64,000 nt of DNA. It comes from an uncultured Pseudomonadota bacterium. Lineage in GTDB: Bacteria; SAR324; NAC60-12. The number at the start of each line of letters is the position of its first letter. The stretch's first letter is position 1. Position numbers and translations under genes: made by a program. The stretch is taken from positions 191 through 64,190 of the forward strand of contig CAZQXS010000002.1 in the NCBI GenBank assembly GCA_964597275.1. The letters run 5' to 3'. Below, in pieces: positions 2,401 through 45,485 of the stretch. The notes beneath the pieces are model-generated. The model was not told where the DNA came from. It searched no databases and saw nothing but the letters and a program-made list of their open reading frames with translations.

Positions 2401-3804
2401 ATGATCCGCACCAAAATCATCTGCACCATCGGTCCGGTTTCCGAGTCCTACGACATGCTCAAGAGCATGTCAGGCGCAGGCATGAACGTCGCCCGACTCA
2501 ACATGTCCCACGGCGACCACGCCTGGCACCAGAAGGTCATCCGGCACATCAAGACGCTCAACCGCCAAATCCCCACGCCCATTGCGATTTTGCTCGACAC
2601 GCAGGGTCCGGAAATCCGCACCGGCTCGATCTCGGAAGACCTCGACCTTAAGCAGGGCGAGTTCATCACCATCAACGTGCGGGGCGAGAGCGATGTCGAA
2701 ACCACCTCGATCCATGTGGATTACGACGACCTCATCCGCACCGTGAACCCCGGCGACAAGATCACGGTGGACAACGGCCTCATCAACCTGGAGGTGCTGG
2801 AGAAGCACGACCGCGAGATGCGCTGTCAGGTGCTGGACGGCGGGGTGCTGAAGAGCAAGCGGCACGTCAACCTGCCCGGAGTGCGCATCAACCTGCCCGC
2901 GATCACGCAGAAGGATCGGCGCGACATCCTCTTTGGGCTGGAGAACGATGTGGACTTCATCGCCCTTTCCTTTGTGCGCGAGGCCAACGACATCCGGCAG
3001 CTCAGGGAACTGATGGACAAGAAGGTCGGCAAGATCAAGATCGTCGCCAAGATCGAGGATCAGGAAGGAGTGGCCAACTTGGAGCAGATCATCGAGGAAT
3101 CCGATGGCGTGATGGTGGCGCGGGGCGACCTTGGCGTGGAAATCCCGGTCCACACCGTGCCGTCCGTGCAGCGAGAAATCGTGCGCAAGTGCGCCGAGCG
3201 CGGACGCCGCGTGATCGTCGCCACCCACCTGCTCGAATCCATGATCAGCAACCCCATCCCCACCCGCGCCGAGGTCACGGACGTGGCCAACGCCGTCTAT
3301 GAGGAAGCCGATGCGGTGATGCTTTCCGGAGAAACCACGGTGGGCAAGTACCCGCTGCGCTGCATTGACCAACTCGTCAACATCGCCCGCACGATTGAGC
3401 AAAAACCCGGACTTCGCTTCGTCGAAAACCTGCGCTCCGATTCCGACAAGCAATCGCTCTCGAACGCCGCAGTCGCTCTGGCGGAATCGCTGGGAGTGCG
3501 CGGCCTTGTCGTGATCACTCGGCGCGGCGTGATGGCCGAGTACGTCAGCAACTGCCGTCCCACGAACAGCCTCATCTACGCCTTCACCAACGTCAGCCAA
3601 GCCCGCCGCACGATGATGCTCTGTCGGGGCTTGCGCTCCTATCGCATCAACTTCAGCGAGGATCCGGAAAAAACCCTGCAAACCGCCTTCATCGCGCTCA
3701 AGGAACGCGAGGGCTTCCAGTCCGGGGAAAAGGTCGTGGTGATCTCCGACGTGCTGGCCGGCTCCGGCAAGATTGACGCGATCCAGATCCGCCAGCTTCC
3801 CTGA
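2401..3804 (+). CDS. pyk: pyruvate kinase
   Basis: MIRTKIICTIGPVSESYDMLKSM...NVARLNMSHGDH: canonical pyruvate kinase N-terminus and barrel; 467 aa. 2-bp spacing after lysA. Confidence 0.9.
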   Translation: MIRTKIICTIGPVSESYDMLKSMSGAGMNVARLNMSHGDHAWHQKVIRHIKTLNRQIPTPIAILLDTQGPEIRTGSISEDLDLKQGEFITINVRGESDVETTSIHVDYDDLIRTVNPGDKITVDNGLINLEVLEKHDREMRCQVLDGGVLKSKRHVNLPGVRINLPAITQKDRRDILFGLENDVDFIALSFVREANDIRQLRELMDKKVGKIKIVAKIEDQEGVANLEQIIEESDGVMVARGDLGVEIPVHTVPSVQREIVRKCAERGRRVIVATHLLESMISNPIPTRAEVTDVANAVYEEADAVMLSGETTVGKYPLRCIDQLVNIARTIEQKPGLRFVENLRSDSDKQSLSNAAVALAESLGVRGLVVITRRGVMAEYVSNCRPTNSLIYAFTNVSQARRTMMLCRGLRSYRINFSEDPEKTLQTAFIALKEREGFQSGEKVVVISDVLAGSGKIDAIQIRQLP

Positions 3805-3805
3805 G

Positions 3806-5272
3806 ATGCCCCAAGTCGTGATGCTTCAGGGCACTGGCTCTGGAGTCGGGAAAAGCCTGCTCGCCGCCGGACTTTGCCGCTGGCTGGCGAACCGGGACTT
3901 CCGAGTGCTGCCCTTCAAGGCGCAGAACATGGCACTCAACTCCGGGGTCACGCCCGACGGCAAGGAAATCGGACGGGCGCAGGTGCTGCAAGCCGAGGCG
4001 TGCCGCGTAGCGCCGGACGTGCGCATGAACCCCGTGCTGCTCAAACCACAGGGGCCGGGCGTGTCGCAGTTGGTGCGCATGGGCGAAGCCATCCGGGTGT
4101 GTTCTGCACGGGAATACTACACGCTCGCCGAAGAGAATTTCCGGGTGGTGCAAAAGGCGTTTGCCTCGCTGAAAACGGAGGCGGACTGGCTCATCCTCGA
4201 AGGCGCGGGCAGTCCGGCGGAGATCAACCTGCAAGCCACCGACATCGTCAACATGCGCATGGCGGAACACGCGCAAGCCCGCGTGATCGTCGTGGGCGAC
4301 ATTGACCGGGGTGGTGTGTTCGCGTGGCTCAAGGGCACCTACGACCTCGTGCAGGACCGTCACCGCCCGCTCATTCAGGGCTTCCTCATCAATAAGTTCC
4401 GGGGAGACGTTTCCCTGCTCCAGCCCGGAATCCAGCAGTTTGGCGAACACGTCCCGGTTCCCGTGTTGGGCGTGATCCCGTGGCGCGAGTTTGCGCTGGA
4501 GGACGAGGATTCGCAGAATTTGCGTTCGCATCTCGTTCCGGGCGCACGTTTGGAAATCGCGGTGGTCCGCACCCCGTACCTCTCCAACTTCACCGACTTC
4601 GATCCACTCAAGCAGATTCCCGGCGTTTCCGTGCGTTTCACGCGCAATCCGGACGACCTCGCCTCGGCGCGCCTCATCCTCCTGCCCGGCAGCAAGAACA
4701 CCGTGCACGATCTGCGCTTCCTCCACGAATCGGGACTTTCCGACGAACTGCGAAGATTGCACGGGCGCACTTGGATCGCCGGAGTTTGCGGTGGCTACCA
4801 GATGCTCGGCACCGCAGTGGACGATCCCGACGGCATCGAAGACGGCGGTTCTCTTCCCGGACTCGGCCTCCTCAACTTGCAAACCCGCATGGCTCCCGAA
4901 AAAACGTTGGTGCGGCGCGAATACTCCGGGACGGGTTGGCTCAATGGTCTCCGCTGGCCGGCCTACGAAATCCACCACGGACGCACCGAGTTCACTGCTT
5001 CTGCAAGCCCCTCCGCCGCACCTTTTGTCGCAGATGCCCCGGACCTTGGCGTGATTGACTTCAAGAACCGCGTTCTGGGCACCTACCTCCACGGCTTTTT
5101 CGATACTCCGGAAATCGTCCGGCAAGTGCTGTCGCTGCTCACGCCGGAATCCTTCGAGCTACCTCCCGCCTTCCACGACCTCAAGGAGCGCGAACTGGAC
5201 GAACTCGCCGAGTTCCTTGACGAACACTGTGACGTGCCCCGCCTGCTCGGCATGAGTGCCTCTGGAGGGTGA
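3806..5272 (+). CDS. cobQ: cobyric acid synthase (CobQ/CbiP)
   Basis: MPQVVMLQGTGSGVGKSLLAAGLCRWL...PFKAQNMALNS: CobQ N-terminal ATP-binding domain plus C-terminal glutamine amidotransferase domain. Start taken at Met12 of ORF 3773..5272 so it does not overlap pyk. Confidence 0.85.
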   Translation: MPQVVMLQGTGSGVGKSLLAAGLCRWLANRDFRVLPFKAQNMALNSGVTPDGKEIGRAQVLQAEACRVAPDVRMNPVLLKPQGPGVSQLVRMGEAIRVCSAREYYTLAEENFRVVQKAFASLKTEADWLILEGAGSPAEINLQATDIVNMRMAEHAQARVIVVGDIDRGGVFAWLKGTYDLVQDRHRPLIQGFLINKFRGDVSLLQPGIQQFGEHVPVPVLGVIPWREFALEDEDSQNLRSHLVPGARLEIAVVRTPYLSNFTDFDPLKQIPGVSVRFTRNPDDLASARLILLPGSKNTVHDLRFLHESGLSDELRRLHGRTWIAGVCGGYQMLGTAVDDPDGIEDGGSLPGLGLLNLQTRMAPEKTLVRREYSGTGWLNGLRWPAYEIHHGRTEFTASASPSAAPFVADAPDLGVIDFKNRVLGTYLHGFFDTPEIVRQVLSLLTPESFELPPAFHDLKERELDELAEFLDEHCDVPRLLGMSASGG

Positions 5273-16666: not shown

Positions 16667-18253
16667 ATGGTTGATGTTGCAAAACGCAGGCGGCTGGGGC
16701 AGGAACGCTCCGGAGGCCGTGCGGCCCGCAGAGCCTTGCGGAAAGCCGAAACCCCGCAGGTCGTGCAGGCCGGAATGCTGGGAGGCGCGTACAAGCCCTT
16801 GCGAGAGGCCGATTTGGAGAAAATCCACTACGCGGCGCTGGAAATCCTCGAAACCGTGGGCATCGGCGAGGCTACCCCGGAGGTGATCGAACTGGCGACC
16901 GAGCGCGGCTGCATCCTCAGCGAGGCCGGGCGACTCTGCTTTCCTCGCGCCTTGGTTGAAGATGTGCTGGCTCAAGCCGCCAACGAGTATGTGGTGCAGA
17001 GCCGTAACCCCGCCCATGCGGATTTGCAGGTGGGCGGCTATCGCGTGCATTACGCCACCAGCGGCGAGGCGGTCACGATCTTTGAATACTCCTCCAAAAC
17101 CTTCCGGCCCTCCACCCTGCTCGACCTCTACGATGCTTGCCGGCTCACCGATCGACTCGAACACATTCACCAGTTCGGACAAACCGTGATTCCCACCGAG
17201 ATCACGGACCTCGACGAACACGACCTGAATGTCGCTTACGCGCTAGTGGCGGGGACGGAGAAGCCCTTCGAGATGACCTTCAACCGCGCCCGGAACATCA
17301 AGCCTGCGGTGGAGCTGTTCGACATGGTTTTGGGCGGCACAGGACGATTTGCCGAAAAGCCCTTCTGCACCTTCGGCGGCTGCCCCATCGTCTCGCCTCT
17401 GCGCTTCGGTGAGGACAGTCTGGACATTCTCGTTGAAACCAGCCGTCTGGGCCTGATCAACGACATCGCCATCGCTCCGCAGGCCGGAGCTACCGCCCCC
17501 GCGCCGCTGGCAGGCTCGTTGGCGCAAGTGACGGCAGAAGGCTTGGCGTGTCTGGCGATTGTGAACCTCATCCGTCCGGGCTGTCCGATGAGCTTTGCGA
17601 TCTGGCCCTTCATCAGCGATTTGCGCACCGGCTCCTTTTCCGGAGGCAGTGGTGAGGAAGCTCTGATCGTCGCGGCGGCGGTACAGATCGGGAAGTTCTA
17701 CAACCTGCCGACCACCGTGCCCTCCAGCATGACCGACTCCAAAATTCCGGATGCGCAGGCAGGCTACGAAAAAGGCATCAGCGCCGTGCTGGCCGGACTG
17801 GCGGGCGGCAACCGGATTCTGGAATCGGCGGGGATGCTCGGCAGCCTGATGGGCTGTTCCTTCGAGGCGCTGGTGATCGACAACGACATGCTCGGCATGG
17901 TGCAGCGCGTGATTCGCGGCATCGAGGTCACGGACGAAACCCTGAGTCTGGACGTGATCAAAGAGGTTGCGCTGGGACCGGGGCACTACCTCGGACACCC
18001 CCAAACGCTGGAGCGGATGCAGAGCGAGTTTTTGTACCCGAAGCTCGCCGACCGCGCTACCCCCGGAGCTTGGGAGCAGGACGGCTCCAAGGACATGCTC
18101 GAACGCGCTCACGAAACCGCCCGTGAAATTCTGTCCGCCCACTACCCGGATCACCTTGACCCAAAAACCGATGCGGCGATTCGAGCAAAATTCCCGATTC
18201 TGCTGCCCCGCGATGCCATGAAACCCAGTTCCCGCTGGACTCCCGTAACTTGA
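16667..18253 (+). CDS. MttB-superfamily methyltransferase homologue (trimethylamine:corrinoid methyltransferase family, no in-frame amber codon), paralogue 1
   Basis: 528 aa. N-terminal GGRAARRALR...GGAYKPL...LEKIHYAALEILETVG and TIM-barrel body typical of the MttB family. Paralogous to 37123..38670. ATG abuts the mutL stop. Confidence 0.85.
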   Translation: MVDVAKRRRLGQERSGGRAARRALRKAETPQVVQAGMLGGAYKPLREADLEKIHYAALEILETVGIGEATPEVIELATERGCILSEAGRLCFPRALVEDVLAQAANEYVVQSRNPAHADLQVGGYRVHYATSGEAVTIFEYSSKTFRPSTLLDLYDACRLTDRLEHIHQFGQTVIPTEITDLDEHDLNVAYALVAGTEKPFEMTFNRARNIKPAVELFDMVLGGTGRFAEKPFCTFGGCPIVSPLRFGEDSLDILVETSRLGLINDIAIAPQAGATAPAPLAGSLAQVTAEGLACLAIVNLIRPGCPMSFAIWPFISDLRTGSFSGGSGEEALIVAAAVQIGKFYNLPTTVPSSMTDSKIPDAQAGYEKGISAVLAGLAGGNRILESAGMLGSLMGCSFEALVIDNDMLGMVQRVIRGIEVTDETLSLDVIKEVALGPGHYLGHPQTLERMQSEFLYPKLADRATPGAWEQDGSKDMLERAHETAREILSAHYPDHLDPKTDAAIRAKFPILLPRDAMKPSSRWTPVT

Positions 18254-37122: not shown

Positions 37123-38670
37123 ATGAGCGCATCCCGTCCGCGCAAACGCGGAGGCAGCGAGGCCCGCCGCCGTTTCACTGCCGAGCGCCGTGATCCCATG
37201 CTGGGAACCCTCTCCCGCAACCTGCCGATTGTCGAACCGCTGGATCCGGAGCAGGTCGAGCGCATTGACCACGAATCCATGCGCATCCTCGAAGAGGTCG
37301 GCGTGATCTTCCGCGACCCGATTGCGCTGGAGGACTGGAAGCAGGCAGGAGCGAGAGTGGATGGCGAGCGCGTGTACTTTGATCGAGGGCACATCCGGGA
37401 GCTGATTGCCAGCATTCCCTCCAACATCACGCTCCACGCCCGCGATCCCAAAAAGACCGTCCAACTTGGCGGTCCGCACTCGATCTTCGTGCCAATGACC
37501 GGAGCGCCCTACTTGCGCGACTTGGAGGACGTGCGGCGCAATCCGACGCTGGAGGACTTGGCGACCTTCCACAAGCTCTGCCAGATGCTGCCTGCGATTC
37601 ACTCCTCTGCGCATCACATCGTGGAACCGATGGACCATCCGGTGCCGCATCGCCACCTGCGCATCACCTACTCGTCCATGAAGCACTCGGACAAGACCTT
37701 CATGGGCATGACCACCTCCGGGAAGAACGCCGAGGATGTTCTGGACCTGTGCGCAATCCTCTTCGGTGCGGATTTTCTGGAAGAGCATCCGGTGGTGACG
37801 GGCAACATCAACGGCAACTCGCCGCTCGTCTGGGACGCGACCATGCTCGGTGCGCTGCGGGCCTTTTCCCGGCGCAACCAGTCGGTGCTGTGTTCGCCGT
37901 TCGTGCTGGGCGGGGCAAACACCCCGGCTTCTGTGGTTCCCTCGGTGGTGCAACTCAACGCCGAGGCGCTTTCCGCGCTGGCCTACACGCAGGTGGTGCG
38001 CAAGGGCACCCCGGCGATTTACGGGCACTACCTCTCCACCGTCTCCATGCAGTCTGGCGCACCGATGGCCGGGACTCCGGAAATCTCGCTGATGAACTTC
38101 ATGATCGGGCAGCTGGCACGGTTCTACGACGTGCCGTGGCGCACCTCCAACACGCTCGGCGGGGCAAAGACCTTCGATGCCCAGGCCGGCTACGAAAGCG
38201 CCTCGACGCTGATGGCGGTCCTGCTTGCCGGAGCGCACTACCTCTGGCATTCTGCTGGGTGGAACGAAGCCGGAATGCACTGCTCAATTGCCAAGTTTGT
38301 CGTGGATGCCGAACAGTGCGCAATGGGCTACCGCATGACCGAAGGCCCACGCTGGGACGACTTTGACGAGGCGCTGGCCGCCGTCCGCGACATCGGCCCC
38401 GGCGGACACTACCTCGGCCATCCGCACACGCTGGCCAACTTCGAGCGGGCCTTCTTCATGCCCCAACTCTTTGACAACAACTCCATCGAGCAGTGGAAGG
38501 CCGAAGGCTCCAAGGAAATCACGGAACGGGCACTGGGCTACGCCAAGAAATTGCTGCGCGACTACGAAGAGCCTAAACTGGATCAAGCCGTCAACGAGGC
38601 ACTGCTGGACTACATCGCCCGCCGCGAACGGGAAATCCCGGAAGATCAGGGCTTGAATGAAACCTATTAA
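37123..38670 (+). CDS. MttB-superfamily methyltransferase homologue (no in-frame amber codon), paralogue 2
   Basis: Start at MSASRPRKRGGSEARRRF... (Met27 of ORF 37045..38670), chosen by alignment with paralogue 1. Shared motifs (…GHYLGHP…TL..…) with 16667..18253. Confidence 0.8.
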   Translation: MSASRPRKRGGSEARRRFTAERRDPMLGTLSRNLPIVEPLDPEQVERIDHESMRILEEVGVIFRDPIALEDWKQAGARVDGERVYFDRGHIRELIASIPSNITLHARDPKKTVQLGGPHSIFVPMTGAPYLRDLEDVRRNPTLEDLATFHKLCQMLPAIHSSAHHIVEPMDHPVPHRHLRITYSSMKHSDKTFMGMTTSGKNAEDVLDLCAILFGADFLEEHPVVTGNINGNSPLVWDATMLGALRAFSRRNQSVLCSPFVLGGANTPASVVPSVVQLNAEALSALAYTQVVRKGTPAIYGHYLSTVSMQSGAPMAGTPEISLMNFMIGQLARFYDVPWRTSNTLGGAKTFDAQAGYESASTLMAVLLAGAHYLWHSAGWNEAGMHCSIAKFVVDAEQCAMGYRMTEGPRWDDFDEALAAVRDIGPGGHYLGHPHTLANFERAFFMPQLFDNNSIEQWKAEGSKEITERALGYAKKLLRDYEEPKLDQAVNEALLDYIARREREIPEDQGLNETY

Positions 38671-38757
38671 GACACGACTTTCCTTGTGCCTGCATAAGGC
38701 CTTGTTTAATGTGTAATTACACATTAAAGTAAGTCAACCCTTCTCCTAGAGGAGAAC

Positions 38758-38937
38758 ATGACCAAACGCGAACTTCTGAAGGTGCTTAAGAAGGCGGGAT
38801 GGCAGCTCATCCGAGAAGGAAAGCACGAAGTGTAGGGAAAGGACGGGCAAACGATTCCGATCCCAAGACACAAGGGGGACATTCCGGTTGGGACAGCCAA
38901 CAACATCCTCAAGCGAGCCGGAATCAAGCAGAGCTAG
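38758..38937 (+). pseudogene. hicA: hicA toxin gene inactivated by an amber nonsense mutation (TAG at 38821-38823)
   Basis: Manual translation: MTKRELLKVLKKAGWQLIREGKHEV*GKDGQTIPIPRHKGDIPVGTANNILKRAGIKQS*. Matches the HicA consensus (GSHHvY..DG...tiP.H.gKDi..GTl..ILKQAGI). The stop replaces the conserved aromatic (Tyr). Confidence 0.6.
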
Positions 38938-38957
38938 CGAGCTACGAAAAAAGGATT

Positions 38958-39347
38958 ATGGAATACTTCAATGCGGTTTTCACAGAAGAAGACGCTTCTG
39001 TTTTAGTCTCGATTCCTGATGTGGAAATCTGTGAGACGTTCGGGGGTTGTTGGGAGGAAGCCTACGAAAATGCGGTGGATGCCCTCGCTGCCTGCCTATC
39101 GGTTCCAGAAACGATCGTTCATGCCAAGAGTTCGCTCGACCTATTGCAATCGAAGCACCCAGACGCTCAGATTATCCCGATTCCGGTGGACGAGAAAATC
39201 AAGCAGTCCTACGAACAAACCAAGCGGTTTAACGTGATTTTCCCTCAGAGCTTGCTGACTGCTGTTGATGAGTACCGAGCCAAAACAGGCTGGAAGCGCT
39301 CCGCATTTTTGGCGGTTGCCGCTAAGGAGTATATTGAATCTCACTAA
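38958..39347 (+). CDS. hicB: HicB-family antitoxin with C-terminal ribbon-helix-helix
   Basis: MEYFNAVFTEEDASVLVSIPDVEICETFGGCWEEAYENAVDAL... plus C-terminal RHH (FNVIFPQSLLTAVDEYRAKTGWKRSAFLAVAAKEYI). Low-GC region. The ORF track's 38799 start is an upstream read-through. Confidence 0.65.
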   Translation: MEYFNAVFTEEDASVLVSIPDVEICETFGGCWEEAYENAVDALAACLSVPETIVHAKSSLDLLQSKHPDAQIIPIPVDEKIKQSYEQTKRFNVIFPQSLLTAVDEYRAKTGWKRSAFLAVAAKEYIESH

Positions 39348-39361
39348 AACCAAGGAGATCT

Positions 39362-40267
39362 GTGCAATTTGAAGGAATCTACACCCCGATCATCACGCCG
39401 CACACGGAAGACGGGGCCATTGACAAGGAAGCCTTTGCGGAGGTGGCGGAGTACCTGATCGCCTCTGGAGTCCACTGCATCGTGGTGGGTGGCTCCACCG
39501 GAGAGTACTACGCCCAGACCAACGAGGAGCGCATCGAGTTGATGAATTTCGCCCGCGAGGTCATCAACCAGCGCACCCTGCTGATGGTCGGAACCGGAGC
39601 CACGCGCACGGAGGATTGCGTGATGTTCGCCAAGGCCGCCAAGGAGTCGGGGGCGGATTTTCTGCTGATCAACTCCCCGCCGTATGCCGTGCCGACCGAT
39701 CTGGAGAACGCAATGCACGCGCTTCAGATTGACCGGGCCGCAAACCTGCCGATCATGCTCTACAACTATCCCGGACGCACCGGAACCCACATGGGCGAGG
39801 AGTTTCTGGACCGGGTGGGACGCTCGCCGAATTTCTGCGGCATCAAGGAAAGTTCCGGGGACATCAACCGCGTCCACCTGCTCGCCCGCGACTATCCGCA
39901 CATCGGACTGTGCTGCGGCATGGACGACCAAGCGCTGGAGTTCTTCGCGTGGGGAGCGCGGTGTTGGGTTTGCGCTGGCTCCAACTTCCTTCCCAAGGAA
40001 CACAACGCCCTCTACGAAGCCTGCGCCCTCGAAGGCGATTACACCAAGGGGCGGCGCATCATGTCAGCGCTGTTGCCTTTGATGCGCGTGCTGGAGCAGG
40101 GCGGAAAGTTCGTGCAGAGCGTCAAGTACGGCTGCGAGTTGGAAGGGCTGCGCCCCGGATCGCCGCGAGCGCCGCTACGCCCCCTCACCAAAGACGAGAA
40201 GCGCGAACTGGAGCAGGTGATTCGCACCCTGAAAACCACGATTTCCAACATCCTAGCGGAAGGCTGA
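39362..40267 (+). CDS. DapA/NAL-family class I aldolase/lyase (dihydrodipicolinate synthase family; e.g. pyrroline-hydroxy-carboxylate deaminase or keto-deoxy-acid aldolase)
   Basis: 301 aa; GSTGE motif, Schiff-base Lys in ...GIKESSGD..., TIM barrel length typical of the family. Confidence 0.8.
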   Translation: MQFEGIYTPIITPHTEDGAIDKEAFAEVAEYLIASGVHCIVVGGSTGEYYAQTNEERIELMNFAREVINQRTLLMVGTGATRTEDCVMFAKAAKESGADFLLINSPPYAVPTDLENAMHALQIDRAANLPIMLYNYPGRTGTHMGEEFLDRVGRSPNFCGIKESSGDINRVHLLARDYPHIGLCCGMDDQALEFFAWGARCWVCAGSNFLPKEHNALYEACALEGDYTKGRRIMSALLPLMRVLEQGGKFVQSVKYGCELEGLRPGSPRAPLRPLTKDEKRELEQVIRTLKTTISNILAEG

Positions 40268-41788: not shown

Positions 41789-41864
41789 CAAAAGAGCCTG
41801 GGGTGGAATGTCCACCCCAAAACCCAATCGGGACTTCCTGAACCCTAACCCATCCCATGCAATG

Positions 41865-42995
41865 TCCAATCGCTTGAAAAGTGTTCTGCTCCTTGTGCTT
41901 TTTGCATCCGTTGCATGCTCCAAGGCGGTGACCACCAGCAAAACGATCCCCATGCCAAGTGGGCCGATTGAGACGGTGAACCAGTGCCAAGTTCTGGACA
42001 CCCACACCTACTGCTTGTCCGCTCAAGCCCCGGCTCCTCCCGCGACACCCGGACCATGGGGAGAGCTTTCGGCCTACTCCCCTGAAGTGTTCTGTGCTTC
42101 TGACTTGCCCGCCAACATTTGTGACGAAATCACAACCGCCCTGCTGGCAGCGGCTGTAGAATGGGGGAACTATGGTCCACTGGAGTACTGGGTCTTGGGC
42201 ATTGACCAACCAGCGGCTCAGACCCTGACTAAGCTTTACTGTGGACGACGTGACCAGCGGGGACAGTTTGCCAAGGCCCGCTGCCTGCGGAGGCACAACA
42301 ACTCGCGACATGGATTTGAGTCCTATCGTGCAACCGGAGCAGAAGCCGTTGCCTCTGGCAGGCCCAGAGGAAGTGCGGGTCTGAATGGAAATCGTGACTG
42401 GGGAATTCATTTTTTCACATCGTCACTCCCCGTCGGGTTCACGGATCTGTTCAAGGTTCCGGGGGTCGAAGAGCAGAAGACGGTCTTTCACGAGTACTTT
42501 CATGCCGTGCAGCACTCACACATCCAAACCAAAGACCGGAACCAGCGGGATCAACTCCTTGGCCCGGTCTGGTTCAACGAAGGAGGTGCCGAGTACATGG
42601 CCCAAAAGGCGACCAAGAAGTTGCGAGAGTCTGGGGCACTCCCTGAATTGAACGAAACGGGCCGCTGGCCCTTTGTCTTCAAAGAAAAAATGCAGAGAAA
42701 GCTCAGGAAGGGTCTGAAAAAGCTGAAAAGCTGCTCTGGCCTACGGTTGCAGGACTTGACCTACGAGACACCTTGCAAAGGCGCCCACTACGATTTGGGA
42801 GCTTGGGCACATGCCTACCTTGACCATAAGTTCGGCTCGCAGGCATTGCTGGGAACCTTCTACCCCAGCCTCAACGAATTGGGCTGGGAGGGGGCGTTCA
42901 CGAAGGCTTACGGCATAACCTCCGAAGAGTTCTATACGGAGTTCGATCAATTTCTGAAGCTGCCGCTCAATCAGCAGATGGCGATCCTCCCCTAG
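41865..42995 (+). CDS. secreted/lipoprotein-like hypothetical protein with HExxH motif (putative zinc-dependent hydrolase)
   Basis: Start at MSNRLKSVLLLVLFASVAC (signal peptide with possible lipobox), taken instead of ORF start 41643, which overlaps the ALDH gene. HEYFHAVQH motif. Somewhat lower GC. Confidence 0.45.
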   Translation, partial: SNRLKSVLLLVLFASVACSKAVTTSKTIPMPSGPIETVNQCQVLDTHTYCLSAQAPAPPATPGPWGELSAYSPEVFCASDLPANICDEITTALLAAAVEWGNYGPLEYWVLGIDQPAAQTLTKLYCGRRDQRGQFAKARCLRRHNNSRHGFESYRATGAEAVASGRPRGSAGLNGNRDWGIHFFTSSLPVGFTDLFKVPGVEEQKTVFHEYFHAVQHSHIQTKDRNQRDQLLGPVWFNEGGAEYMAQKATKKLRESGALPELNETGRWPFVFKEKMQRKLRKGLKKLKSCSGLRLQDLTYETPCKGAHYDLGAWAHAYLDHKFGSQALLGTFYPSLNELGWEGAFTKAYGITSEEFYTEFDQFLKLPLNQQMAILP

Positions 42996-44449: not shown

Positions 44450-45485
44450 CTAGTAGAGTTCGCCCAACTGCTCTCGATAGGGTGTCAGGTCAAAGCCTTT
44501 TTCCTGAAGCCAGCCCTCATTGTAGTACGTCTCCAAGTAGCGTTCTCCGCCATCACAAATCATGGAGACGACACTGCCGTTCTCTCCGCGCTGGTTCAGT
44601 TCCGAGATGAGTTGGAAGGCCGCATAGACGTTGGTTCCGGTGGAGCCGCCGCATTTGCGGTTCAGGAGCTTTTCCAGAAAATGGATCGTGGCATAGGCGG
44701 CGGCATCCGGGACCTTGATCATCCGGTCAATGACCGAGGGGAGGAAGGAAGGCTCCACACGAGGCCGACCAATGCCCTCGATGTTGGAGGCTTTCCAGAA
44801 AGTCAGAGTGGAGTCTCCTGTTTGGAAAGCGTCATAAAACACCGAATTCTGAGGGTCCGGAACACAAAGCCGAGTCTGACGGCGCTTGTAGCGGAGGTAG
44901 CAGCCAATCGTGGCGGACGTTCCGCCCGTGCCCGCGCTGATCACGATCCAAGAGGGTTCGGCAAACCGTTCGCGCTGCATCTGCGTGAAGATGGACTCGG
45001 CGATGTTGTTGTTGCCCCGCCAGTCCGTCGCCCGTTCGGCAAAGGTGAACTGGTCCATGTAGTGTCCGTTTTGCGCTTTTGCCAACCTCGCGGCCTCCGA
45101 GTAGATGTCCTTGGCCTCCACAAAGTGGCACTGCCCATCATAAAAGTTGATCTGATCAATCTTCTCCTGCGAGGTGCCTTTGGGCATGACCGCGATGAAG
45201 GGTAAGCCGAAGTCTTGCGAAGTAGGCTTCGGAAACCGCCGTGCTGCCCGAAGAGGATTCGATGATCGGGGTGCCCTCGGAAATCAAGCCGTTGCAGAGT
45301 CCGTAGAGGAACAAGGAGCGGGCGAGGCGGTGCTTGAGGCTCCCCGTCGGATGGGTGGATTCATCCTTCAGGTAGAGGTCAACCTACTTGGCCGAGGGCA
45401 AGTCCACCCAGATGAGGTGGGTGTCCGACGAGCGTTGGAAATCCGCTTCAATCGTGGTGATCGCTTGGTTGACCCAATCTCTCAT
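44450..45485 (-). pseudogene. fold-type II PLP-dependent enzyme (Trp-synthase-beta superfamily, cysteine-synthase/threonine-dehydratase-like), disrupted by in-frame TAG and a frameshift
   Basis: Manual minus-strand translation from ATG at 45485: [67 protein letters not shown]...[21 protein letters not shown]-Lys motif SLKHR. Then a frame change near 45190 into ORF 44450..45187 ([12 protein letters not shown]...GGTSATIG...). Confidence 0.5.

What the first reader, a model, noticed from the sequence alone, without database searches (positions are those of the whole stretch)
38758..39347. HicAB module in a low-GC islet with the HicA toxin knocked out by a Tyr to amber mutation; antitoxin intact
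Manual translation from 38758 gives a textbook HicA sequence, interrupted by TAG exactly at the conserved aromatic following the GxH(H)V motif. A TAT/TAC to TAG change is a single-base substitution. The downstream HicB, with a C-terminal RHH DNA-binding domain, is intact (38958..39347). The whole segment is AT-richer than its flanks. This looks like a horizontally acquired toxin-antitoxin system caught in the act of toxin inactivation, leaving an orphan antitoxin/regulator.
Basis: seen in the sequence. Interest (0 to 1): 0.5.

Follow-up and report, generated by a model that had tools for sequence, protein, structure and literature searches.

The report
Decaying HicA toxin, intact HicB antitoxin
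This is an ordinary hicAB toxin-antitoxin pair in an uncultured marine SAR324-type bacterium whose toxin gene has been knocked out by a stop codon, and related assemblies show the same tryptophan codon was hit twice independently (TAG and TGA) while the intact version is still rare in the population.

Summary
The hicA-hicB pair is real (Pfam HicA_toxin 57.5 bits, HicB_lk_antitox 53.1 bits), and so is the low-GC islet (about 0.50 against 0.63). The in-frame TAG is at 38833-38835, not 38821-38823. The ancestral codon was Trp (TGG), not Tyr.

In 27 assemblies of this lineage, codon 26 is TGA in 18, TAG in 8 and TGG in 1. All close homologues have Trp there. These are therefore two independent G>A nonsense mutations in one codon, not an assembly error and not recoding. 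One TGA contig carries a second stop (R19*).

hicB is intact, with only one synonymous SNP. A perfect 24-bp palindrome, probably its operator, lies upstream.

A sister lineage carries intact hicAB at the same mttB|DHDPS junction. Its dS (about 0.8-0.9) is similar to that of the flanking genes, and dN/dS is about 0.05-0.07. The islet is therefore old and the inactivation recent. A related SAR324 MAG has the empty site.

Three further independent hicA lesions occur in the sister lineage. Loss of the toxin before the antitoxin is a documented route of TA decay (PMC13617665). Verdict: ordinary, well supported, modest interest.

The parts
38671..39351 (+). hicAB islet (about 680 bp) inserted between the mttB-family stop codon (38668-38670) and the Shine-Dalgarno sequence and GTG start of the DHDPS-family gene (39362)
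   Evidence: In the related SAR324 MAG L012, the mttB TAA is followed by only 14 nt (ctttaaggagacat) before the DHDPS GTG, so that site is empty. GC is 0.48-0.52 against 0.62-0.65. L011 has a different 450-bp insert at the same junction.
38705..38728 (.). Perfect 24-bp palindrome TTTAATGTGTAA|TTACACATTAAA, 30 nt upstream of the hicA ATG; putative HicB (RHH) operator overlapping the promoter
   Evidence: the repeat finder I2: 12-nt arms, 100% complementary, no spacer. It is conserved in the sister lineage with a symmetric change in both half-sites (TAATGTG...CACATTA becomes TAGTGTG...CACACTA in L091). HicB proteins of B. pseudomallei and Y. pestis bind palindromic operators at the -10 region (PMC11594946). 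Binding here is inferred.
38750..38754 (+). Shine-Dalgarno sequence AGGAG of hicA
   Evidence: Read directly from the sequence.
38758..38937 (+). hicA pseudogene (59 codons plus terminal TAG); only residues 1-25 can be translated
   Evidence: Translation. Pfam HicA_toxin, 57.5 bits. PDB sequence hits 4C26, 6G26 and 1WHZ.
38833..38835 (+). Premature stop codon (TAG in this window) at codon 26, ancestrally Trp (TGG). Polymorphic in the population: TGA 18, TAG 8, TGG 1
   Evidence: Trp in the closest homologues. The position is three residues after the catalytic His, like the hydrophobic-core Phe27 of B. pseudomallei HicA (PMC3969222; positional comparison made by me).
38951..38955 (+). hicB's own Shine-Dalgarno-like AAGGA
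   Evidence: Read directly from the sequence. The sister lineage has GAGGAG at the equivalent place.
38958..39347 (+). hicB, an intact 129-aa antitoxin: N-terminal HicB fold plus C-terminal RHH
   Evidence: PF15919, 53.1 bits over residues 7-122. Aligned over residues 3-126 to B. pseudomallei HicB 6G1N, and over 85-126 to the RHH of Y. pestis HicB3 4P78. The identical protein occurs on at least 16 contigs. The only SNP (39161) is synonymous. dN/dS is 0.071 against the sister lineage.

Best explanation
The locus is a small chromosomal type II hicAB toxin-antitoxin islet in a high-GC member of the SAR324 cluster. It sits between a non-pyrrolysine mttB-family methyltransferase gene and a DHDPS-family gene.

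In the working state, which is retained in a sister lineage and in one assembly of this lineage, hicA encodes a 58-59-aa dsRBD-like RNase toxin with a G21-K22-H23 catalytic loop. hicB encodes an antitoxin that sequesters HicA through its N-terminal domain. HicB probably represses the operon through its C-terminal RHH domain at the 24-bp palindrome in the promoter (inferred).

In this window the Trp26 codon TGG has mutated to TAG. Translation stops two residues after the catalytic His, before beta2, beta3, the conserved PRHxGD loop and alpha2. The toxin is therefore null (inferred from the truncation).

A second, independent G>A hit in the same codon (TGG>TGA) is the commoner allele in the population. 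hicB, its Shine-Dalgarno sequence and the operator are intact, so the cell is left with an autoregulated antitoxin without a cognate toxin. This is the first step of the known toxin-first decay of chromosomal TA modules.

Shown here: the family assignments, the stop, the three alleles, the ancestral Trp, orthology and long-term purifying selection, the empty site, and further decay on TGA alleles. Inferred: loss of toxicity, HicB binding to the operator, and the reason the null alleles are frequent.
For: - Family assignment.
- Stop codon and frame.
- The 261 nt around hicA are identical in 11 assemblies except for codon 26, which is TAG, TGA or TGG. Extended survey: TGA 16, TAG 8, TGG 1, plus two more TGA contigs.
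- The 13 closest homologues (72-93% identity) have Trp at this position.
- A sister lineage has intact hicA (TGG) and hicB at the same mttB|DHDPS junction.
- dS and dN/dS against the sister lineage: hicA 0.83 and 0.047; hicB 0.90 and 0.071; mttB 0.65 and 0.065; DHDPS 0.75 and 0.10.
- L012 has the empty site.
- TAG lies mostly on one flanking haplotype (7 of 8), whereas TGA is found on both (10 and 6). This fits separate origins only weakly.
- Post-inactivation decay: L116 (TGA allele) also carries R19 CGA>TGA and G30R. L117 carries I56T.
- Independent hicA lesions in the sister lineage: a 1-nt deletion in a G-run (L099), a replaced 5' end plus catalytic H23Y (L100), and a deleted 3' part (L097, L098). 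hicB is intact in L099 and L100.
- Of 125 coding SNP sites in 20 genes over 20 kb, only 3 are nonsense, and 2 of those are this codon.
- Literature: toxin-only pseudogenisation is among the commonest forms of TA erosion, and toxin inactivation precedes antitoxin loss (PMC13617665).
Against: - No reads, transcripts or proteins were available, so loss of toxicity and continued hicB expression are inferred.
- The assemblies are consensus sequences. Several may be re-assemblies of the same sequencing runs (ENA SUTE22-1 SAMN102318xx-9xx against Logan SRR80623xx), so the 18:8:1 count is not a population frequency.
- Two hits in one codon are somewhat unexpected under uniform mutation: P about 0.04-0.12 given two nonsense mutations. 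A local mutational hotspot (TGGGG, or CCCCA on the other strand) or selection for this particular truncation cannot be told apart.
Confidence: 0.88

Rival explanations
1. The two null alleles are frequent because selection favours loss of HicA. This would be a soft sweep by recurrent loss-of-function mutation, for example because toxin activation is costly, rather than neutral decay.
For: - Two independent nonsense alleles together occupy 26 of 27 assemblies, and the intact allele is seen once.
- Both hicA SNPs are nonsense. The neutral expectation for 2 of 2 is about 2.5e-3 with the observed Ts:Tv.
- hicA was under strong purifying selection until recently (dN/dS 0.047).
- At least three other independent lesions occur in the sister lineage.
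Against: - The assemblies are not independent samples.
- A mutational hotspot in the G-run, followed by drift or hitch-hiking, could give the same picture.
- Other pseudogenes or nonsense alleles occur nearby: codon 222 of the 377-aa gene, and a frameshifted PALP gene. Relaxed selection is therefore not special to hicA.
- In the sister lineage the intact allele predominates.
Confidence: 0.4
2. The stop is recoded or leaky, so some full-length HicA is still made (an attenuated rather than dead toxin). TAG could be read as pyrrolysine, or TGA as selenocysteine or as Trp by near-cognate read-through.
For: - The window contains an Rfam PYLIS_3 hit (17729-17828, 55.9 bits) and two MttB-family genes.
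- UGA is the leakiest bacterial stop and is misread by tRNA-Trp, which would restore the wild-type residue (general knowledge).
Against: - The PYLIS hit lies in an uninterrupted MttB paralogue with AUG where the model has UAG, so it reflects coding-sequence homology.
- TAG ends ordinary genes in the window (30147, 34261, 42993, and hicA itself).
- The same codon is TAG, TGA or TGG in different assemblies, which does not fit dedicated Pyl or Sec insertion.
- No SECIS or PYLIS match lies near the stop, even at E up to 10, and the downstream fold is unremarkable (z -1.9).
- There is no tRNA gene in the window.
- One TGA contig has acquired a second in-frame stop at codon 19 and a G30R change, as expected for an unconstrained pseudogene.
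- The base after the stop is G, which is not a leaky context (general knowledge).
Confidence: 0.03
3. The stop codon is a sequencing or assembly error, and hicA is intact in the organism.
For: Only the single TGG assembly (L009).
Against: 26 assemblies from JGI, ENA, Logan and NCBI, made with different pipelines and samples, carry a stop here in two different forms. Most show no other difference in hicA.
Confidence: 0.01

Closest known systems
Burkholderia pseudomallei HicAB (PDB 4C26 HicA H24A; 6G26 complex; 6G1N HicB)
   Same: - hicA-then-hicB gene order.
- A roughly 60-aa HicA with a Gly-x-His catalytic loop and a core aromatic three residues after the His.
- A HicB with an N-terminal HicA-binding domain and a C-terminal RHH.
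- A palindromic operator in the promoter.
- These are the best PDB sequence hits (HicA E 2.7e-5, HicB E 3.5e-5 over residues 3-126).
   Different: The relationship is distant: E-values of about 1e-5 and alignments with few identical residues. Here the toxin ORF is cut at codon 26. No experimental data exist for this module.
Yersinia pestis HicA3-HicB3 (PDB 4P78, 4P7D)
   Same: An RHH-type HicB that represses the hicA promoter through operators overlapping the -10 region. The RHH segment aligns to residues 85-126.
   Different: Only the RHH part is detectably similar. Y. pestis has two 15-bp operators, whereas this locus has a single 24-bp palindrome.
Toxin-first erosion of chromosomal type II TA modules (Photorhabdus survey, Belot et al. 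2026, PMC13617665)
   Same: - A TA islet without mobile-element genes, lying between conserved chromosomal genes.
- The toxin is pseudogenised while the antitoxin stays intact.
- Presence, absence and replacement all occur at one spot among relatives (and here).
   Different: Here the process is seen as a within-population polymorphism in an uncultured marine SAR324 lineage. There are two independent nonsense alleles in one Trp codon, and the ancestral allele is still present.
Orthologous hicAB of the sister SAR324 lineage (HicA P0039, P0040 and MAU06799.1; HicB MAU06798.1)
   Same: Same insertion site, same operator and about 85% nucleotide identity. HicA differs at only 3 or more residues plus the C-terminal Ser.
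   Different: hicA is intact (TGG) in most contigs. HicB is 131 aa; the window's hicB ends two codons earlier through CAA>TAA.

Membership tests
HicA toxin (PF07927) | Sequence match to the family profile above the curated threshold | tested here: met
   57.5 bits against a cut-off of 27, E 1.4e-15, covering profile positions 2-58 of 58 when the stop is replaced by a residue. PDB hits 4C26, 6G26 and 1WHZ.
HicA toxin (PF07927) | Catalytic Gly-x-His loop (Gly22 and His24 of B. pseudomallei HicA are required for toxicity) | tested here: met
   G21-K22-H23 is present. His23 is at least 90% conserved among 36 homologues. The functional importance comes from PMC3969222.
HicA toxin (PF07927) | Complete open reading frame encoding the whole dsRBD-like alpha-beta-beta-beta-alpha domain | tested here: not met
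   In-frame TAG at codon 26 (38833-38835). No in-frame ATG, GTG or TTG lies downstream to restart translation. This is a pseudogene of a HicA family member, not a functional member.
HicA toxin (PF07927) | RNase toxicity that is neutralised by the cognate HicB | not testable with these tools
   Needs a kill-rescue assay with the TGG, TAG and TGA alleles.
HicB antitoxin (PF15919, RHH subtype) | Profile match above the threshold over the full length | tested here: met
   53.1 bits against 27, residues 7-122 of 129. NCBI names the identical protein a HicB family antitoxin of a SAR324 cluster bacterium (MEE2717816.1).
HicB antitoxin (PF15919, RHH subtype) | C-terminal ribbon-helix-helix DNA-binding domain | tested here: met
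   Residues 85-126 align to the RHH of 4P78, and residues 3-126 align to 6G1N. There is a weak BrnA (RHH) hit over residues 79-120. This is sequence-level evidence only; no structure was predicted.
HicB antitoxin (PF15919, RHH subtype) | Palindromic operator in the hicAB promoter | tested here: met
   A perfect 24-bp palindrome at 38705-38728, conserved with a symmetric two-sided change in the sister lineage. Actual binding was not tested.
Type II TA operon | Adjacent co-oriented toxin and antitoxin genes, each with its own ribosome-binding site, forming a mobile islet | tested here: met
   The gap is 20 nt and Shine-Dalgarno sequences precede both genes. L012 has the empty site.
Pyrrolysine (UAG) recoding | The in-frame UAG is conserved among orthologues; Pyl machinery or a PYLIS element is present | tested here: not met
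   The codon varies between TAG, TGA and TGG. The only PYLIS hit lies in a paralogue that lacks UAG. There is no tRNA gene in the 64 kb. TAG terminates other genes. The rest of the genome was not examined.
Selenocysteine (UGA) recoding | A SECIS hairpin directly downstream of the UGA | tested here: not met
   No SECIS match at E up to 10. The downstream fold is not distinctive.

The most novel reading that the evidence does not exclude
The codon-26 stops may not be simple null alleles. They could be dosage-attenuating alleles of a reversible one-step toggle (TGG<->TAG or TGA). Rare near-cognate read-through by tRNA-Trp would regenerate exactly the wild-type HicA at a very low level, and a single A>G transition would restore the full toxin. 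The population would then hold 'armed', 'nearly disarmed' and revertible states under balancing or fluctuating selection, for example from phage pressure. The repeated use of this one Trp codon would then be adaptive rather than a coincidence.
Probability: 0.04. Interest if true: 0.6.

Novelty: new member of a known kind. Interest (0 to 1): 0.27.

Why it matters
For annotation:
- hicA should be marked as a pseudogene with ancestral Trp26.
- The 182-aa 'HicB' ORF called in several assemblies should be trimmed to 129 aa.
- The PYLIS hit elsewhere in the window should not be read as evidence of pyrrolysine use.

For biology, the locus is a clean natural snapshot of the first step of toxin-antitoxin decay in an abundant uncultured deep-ocean lineage. 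The ancestral allele, two independent null alleles and secondary decay are all visible at once. It could be used to test whether toxin loss is selected or neutral. It does not reveal a new kind of system.

Tried and rejected
- **Pyrrolysine decoding.** This was prompted by the Rfam PYLIS_3 hit at 17729-17828. I rejected it because the hit is inside an uninterrupted non-Pyl MttB paralogue with AUG in place of UAG. TAG is also an ordinary stop here, and the codon is TGA or TGG in other assemblies.
- **Sec or programmed read-through.** No SECIS was found, the downstream structure is unremarkable, and one TGA allele has a second stop.
- **Assembly error.** Excluded by 26 stop-bearing assemblies.
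- **Restart downstream of the stop.** No in-frame start codon is present.
- **Metagenome scans.** The exact-pattern scan of metagenome contigs found nothing. The HicB-based scan found only one locus that I already held. That collection evidently lacks these samples, so the allele survey relied on exact-protein look-ups instead.
- **The different insert in L011.** Its 69-aa ORF gave no Pfam hit, so my guess that it is antitoxin-like is unsupported.
- **Promoter scan.** It did not call a sigma-70 promoter upstream of hicA. The TTGTTT-17 nt-TAAAGT arrangement around the palindrome is my own weak reading.
- **Structure prediction.** Not run. Sequence evidence was judged sufficient.

Full report
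**1. What the sequence shows**

Frame 38758..38937 (+) translates to MTKRELLKVLKKAGWQLIREGKHEV*GKDGQTIPIPRHKGDIPVGTANNILKRAGIKQS*. With a residue in place of the stop it matches Pfam HicA_toxin over the whole profile (57.5 bits, cut-off 27). It also hits the solved HicA proteins 4C26, 6G26 and 1WHZ.

The next gene, 38958..39347, is an uninterrupted 129-aa HicB (PF15919, 53.1 bits). It aligns over residues 3-126 to B. pseudomallei HicB (6G1N). Its last 40 residues align to the RHH of Y. pestis HicB3 (4P78).

GC drops to about 0.50 across 38600-39400, from about 0.63 in the flanks. GC3 is 0.56-0.68 in hicAB and 0.80 in the flanking genes.

The core observation therefore holds, with one correction. 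The in-frame TAG is at 38833-38835 (codon 26).

**2. The ancestral codon is Trp, and there are three alleles**

An exact-protein look-up of HicB returned the same locus from JGI, ENA and NCBI assemblies. Over 261 nt around hicA, all eleven sequences are identical except in codon 26, which is TAG, TGA or TGG.

Further look-ups were made through the 182-aa ORF that some gene callers annotate. They bring the survey to 27 assemblies: TGA 18, TAG 8, TGG 1.

The 13 closest HicA homologues (72-93% identity) have Trp here, in the motif HEVWGKDG. The change is therefore Trp26 TGG>TAG, not Tyr>amber. TGG>TGA is a second, independent G>A transition in the same codon.

TAG lies mostly on one flanking haplotype (7 of 8), whereas TGA occurs on both (10 and 6). 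This fits separate origins only weakly. An assembly error is excluded.

By position, Trp26 lies three residues after the catalytic His, like the hydrophobic-core Phe27 of B. pseudomallei HicA. G21 and H23 correspond to the essential Gly22 and His24 (PMC3969222). The stop removes beta2, beta3, the conserved loop and alpha2.

**3. Recoding was considered and rejected**

The window has an Rfam PYLIS_3 hit at 17729-17828. It lies in an uninterrupted MttB paralogue (16667-18253) with AUG where the model has UAG, so it reflects coding-sequence homology.

- TAG terminates ordinary genes in the window: 30147-49, 34261-63, 42993-95, and hicA itself.
- No SECIS or PYLIS match lies near the stop, even at E up to 10.
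- The downstream RNA fold is unremarkable (z -1.9).
- No tRNA gene is present in the 64 kb.
- One TGA contig (L116) has gained a second in-frame stop (R19 CGA>TGA) and a G30R change. Another (L117) has I56T. This is the behaviour of an unconstrained pseudogene.

**4. Host, islet and age**

The flanking DHDPS-family protein is 81-88% identical to proteins from SAR324-cluster MAGs. NCBI labels the identical HicB as coming from a SAR324 cluster bacterium (MEE2717816.1).

The mttB|DHDPS junction differs among relatives:
- In SAR324 MAG L012 the junction is empty: TAA, then 14 nt, then GTG.
- In L011 the same junction holds a different 450-bp insert.
- A sister lineage (L091-L096) carries orthologous hicAB at exactly this site, with an intact 58-aa HicA (TGG) and a 131-aa HicB.

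Divergence from the sister lineage:

| Gene | dS | dN/dS |
|---|---|---|
| hicA | 0.83 | 0.047 |
| hicB | 0.90 | 0.071 |
| mttB | 0.65 | 0.065 |
| DHDPS | 0.75 | 0.10 |

The module is therefore a variable islet of foreign composition. It has been inherited vertically with its flanks, with both genes under purifying selection, for a long time. Only the knock-out is recent.

The nearest HicB relatives outside SAR324 (about 64-66% identity) come from Desulfobacter and other 'Deltaproteobacteria'.

**5. Regulation**

A perfect 24-bp palindrome (38705-38728) lies 30 nt upstream of the hicA start. In the sister lineage it is conserved, with a matching change in both half-sites. RHH-type HicB proteins bind such palindromes at the promoter (PMC11594946).

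I infer that HicB still represses its own promoter. hicB has its own Shine-Dalgarno-like AAGGA, so its translation need not depend on hicA.

**6. Is this more than ordinary decay?**

Over the 20.4-kb shared region there are 150 variable columns. Of the 125 variable sites that fall in the 20 genes, 76 are synonymous, 46 non-synonymous and 3 nonsense. Two of the three nonsense sites are this codon.

With the observed transition bias, the chance that both hicA SNPs are nonsense is about 2.5e-3. Given two nonsense hits, the chance that they fall in the same codon with different changes is about 0.04.

In the sister lineage I found three more independent lesions:
- a 1-nt deletion in a G-run (L099);
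- a replaced 5' end plus catalytic H23Y (L100);
- a deleted 3' part (L097, L098).

hicB is intact in L099 and L100.

[quoted passage not shown] I cannot decide here whether the high share of null alleles reflects selection against the toxin or a G-run hotspot plus drift. The assemblies are consensus sequences, and some may be re-assemblies of the same runs.

**7. Verdict**

This is a real hicAB module with a recently inactivated toxin and a retained antitoxin. The codon position, the ancestral residue and the implied recency of acquisition are wrong.

The kind of system and the process are both known. The population-level detail, with two independent stops in one Trp codon and the ancestral allele still present, is neat but of modest interest.

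Noticed in passing
window 17729-17828 (+), within ORF 16667-18253: An Rfam PYLIS_3 (mttB pyrrolysine insertion sequence) hit at 55.9 bits, above the gathering score. It lies inside an uninterrupted non-Pyl MttB-family paralogue, and the position of the model's UAG is AUG. The hit comes from coding-sequence homology and could mislead annotation into inferring Pyl use.
   Followed up: yes
L011 3554-4000 (uncultured proteobacterium MAG CAJWCD010000006.1): The same mttB|DHDPS junction carries a different 450-bp insert with a 69-aa ORF (3719-3928) that has no Pfam hit. Together with the empty site in L012 and hicAB here, this intergenic spot looks like a recurrent landing site for small cassettes in SAR324 relatives.
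   Followed up: partly
window 42525 (codon 222 of the 377-aa ORF 41862-42995, +): A second nonsense polymorphism in the neighbourhood: CAA in most assemblies and TAA in L004 and L010. The protein has no confident Pfam domain (a weak Peptidase_M9 hit, E 8e-4).
   Followed up: partly
window about 44450-45485 (-): The PALP-family (cysteine synthase-like) gene appears to be a pseudogene. The N-terminal part (..[19 protein letters not shown]..) is in a different frame from the 245-aa C-terminal ORF and is preceded by an in-frame stop. Gene callers split or truncate it in all assemblies.
   Followed up: partly
window 38799-39347 (+): A 182-aa ORF is called as 'HicB' in ENA and Logan assemblies. It is the real 129-aa hicB plus a spurious 53-codon N-terminal extension that runs out of frame across the dead hicA. 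This annotation artefact becomes possible once hicA is no longer called.
   Followed up: yes
window 39345-39347: hicB ends two codons earlier than in the sister lineage (..ESH* against ..ESHQS*) because of a CAA>TAA change. In the sister lineage the hicB stop overlaps the DHDPS Shine-Dalgarno sequence (CTAAGGAGA).
   Followed up: no
L116 (ENA ERZ23499007 scaffold_8950), hicA codons 19 and 30: This TGA-allele contig has an additional in-frame stop (R19 CGA>TGA) and a G30R change, which shows ongoing decay after the first knock-out.
   Followed up: yes
window whole (GC 0.60) against L013-L018 (GC 0.43-0.47): This SAR324-related lineage and its sister (0.57) are much more GC-rich than the other SAR324 MAG loci retrieved. 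The hicAB islet's GC (about 0.50) is closer to that of those lower-GC relatives.
   Followed up: no
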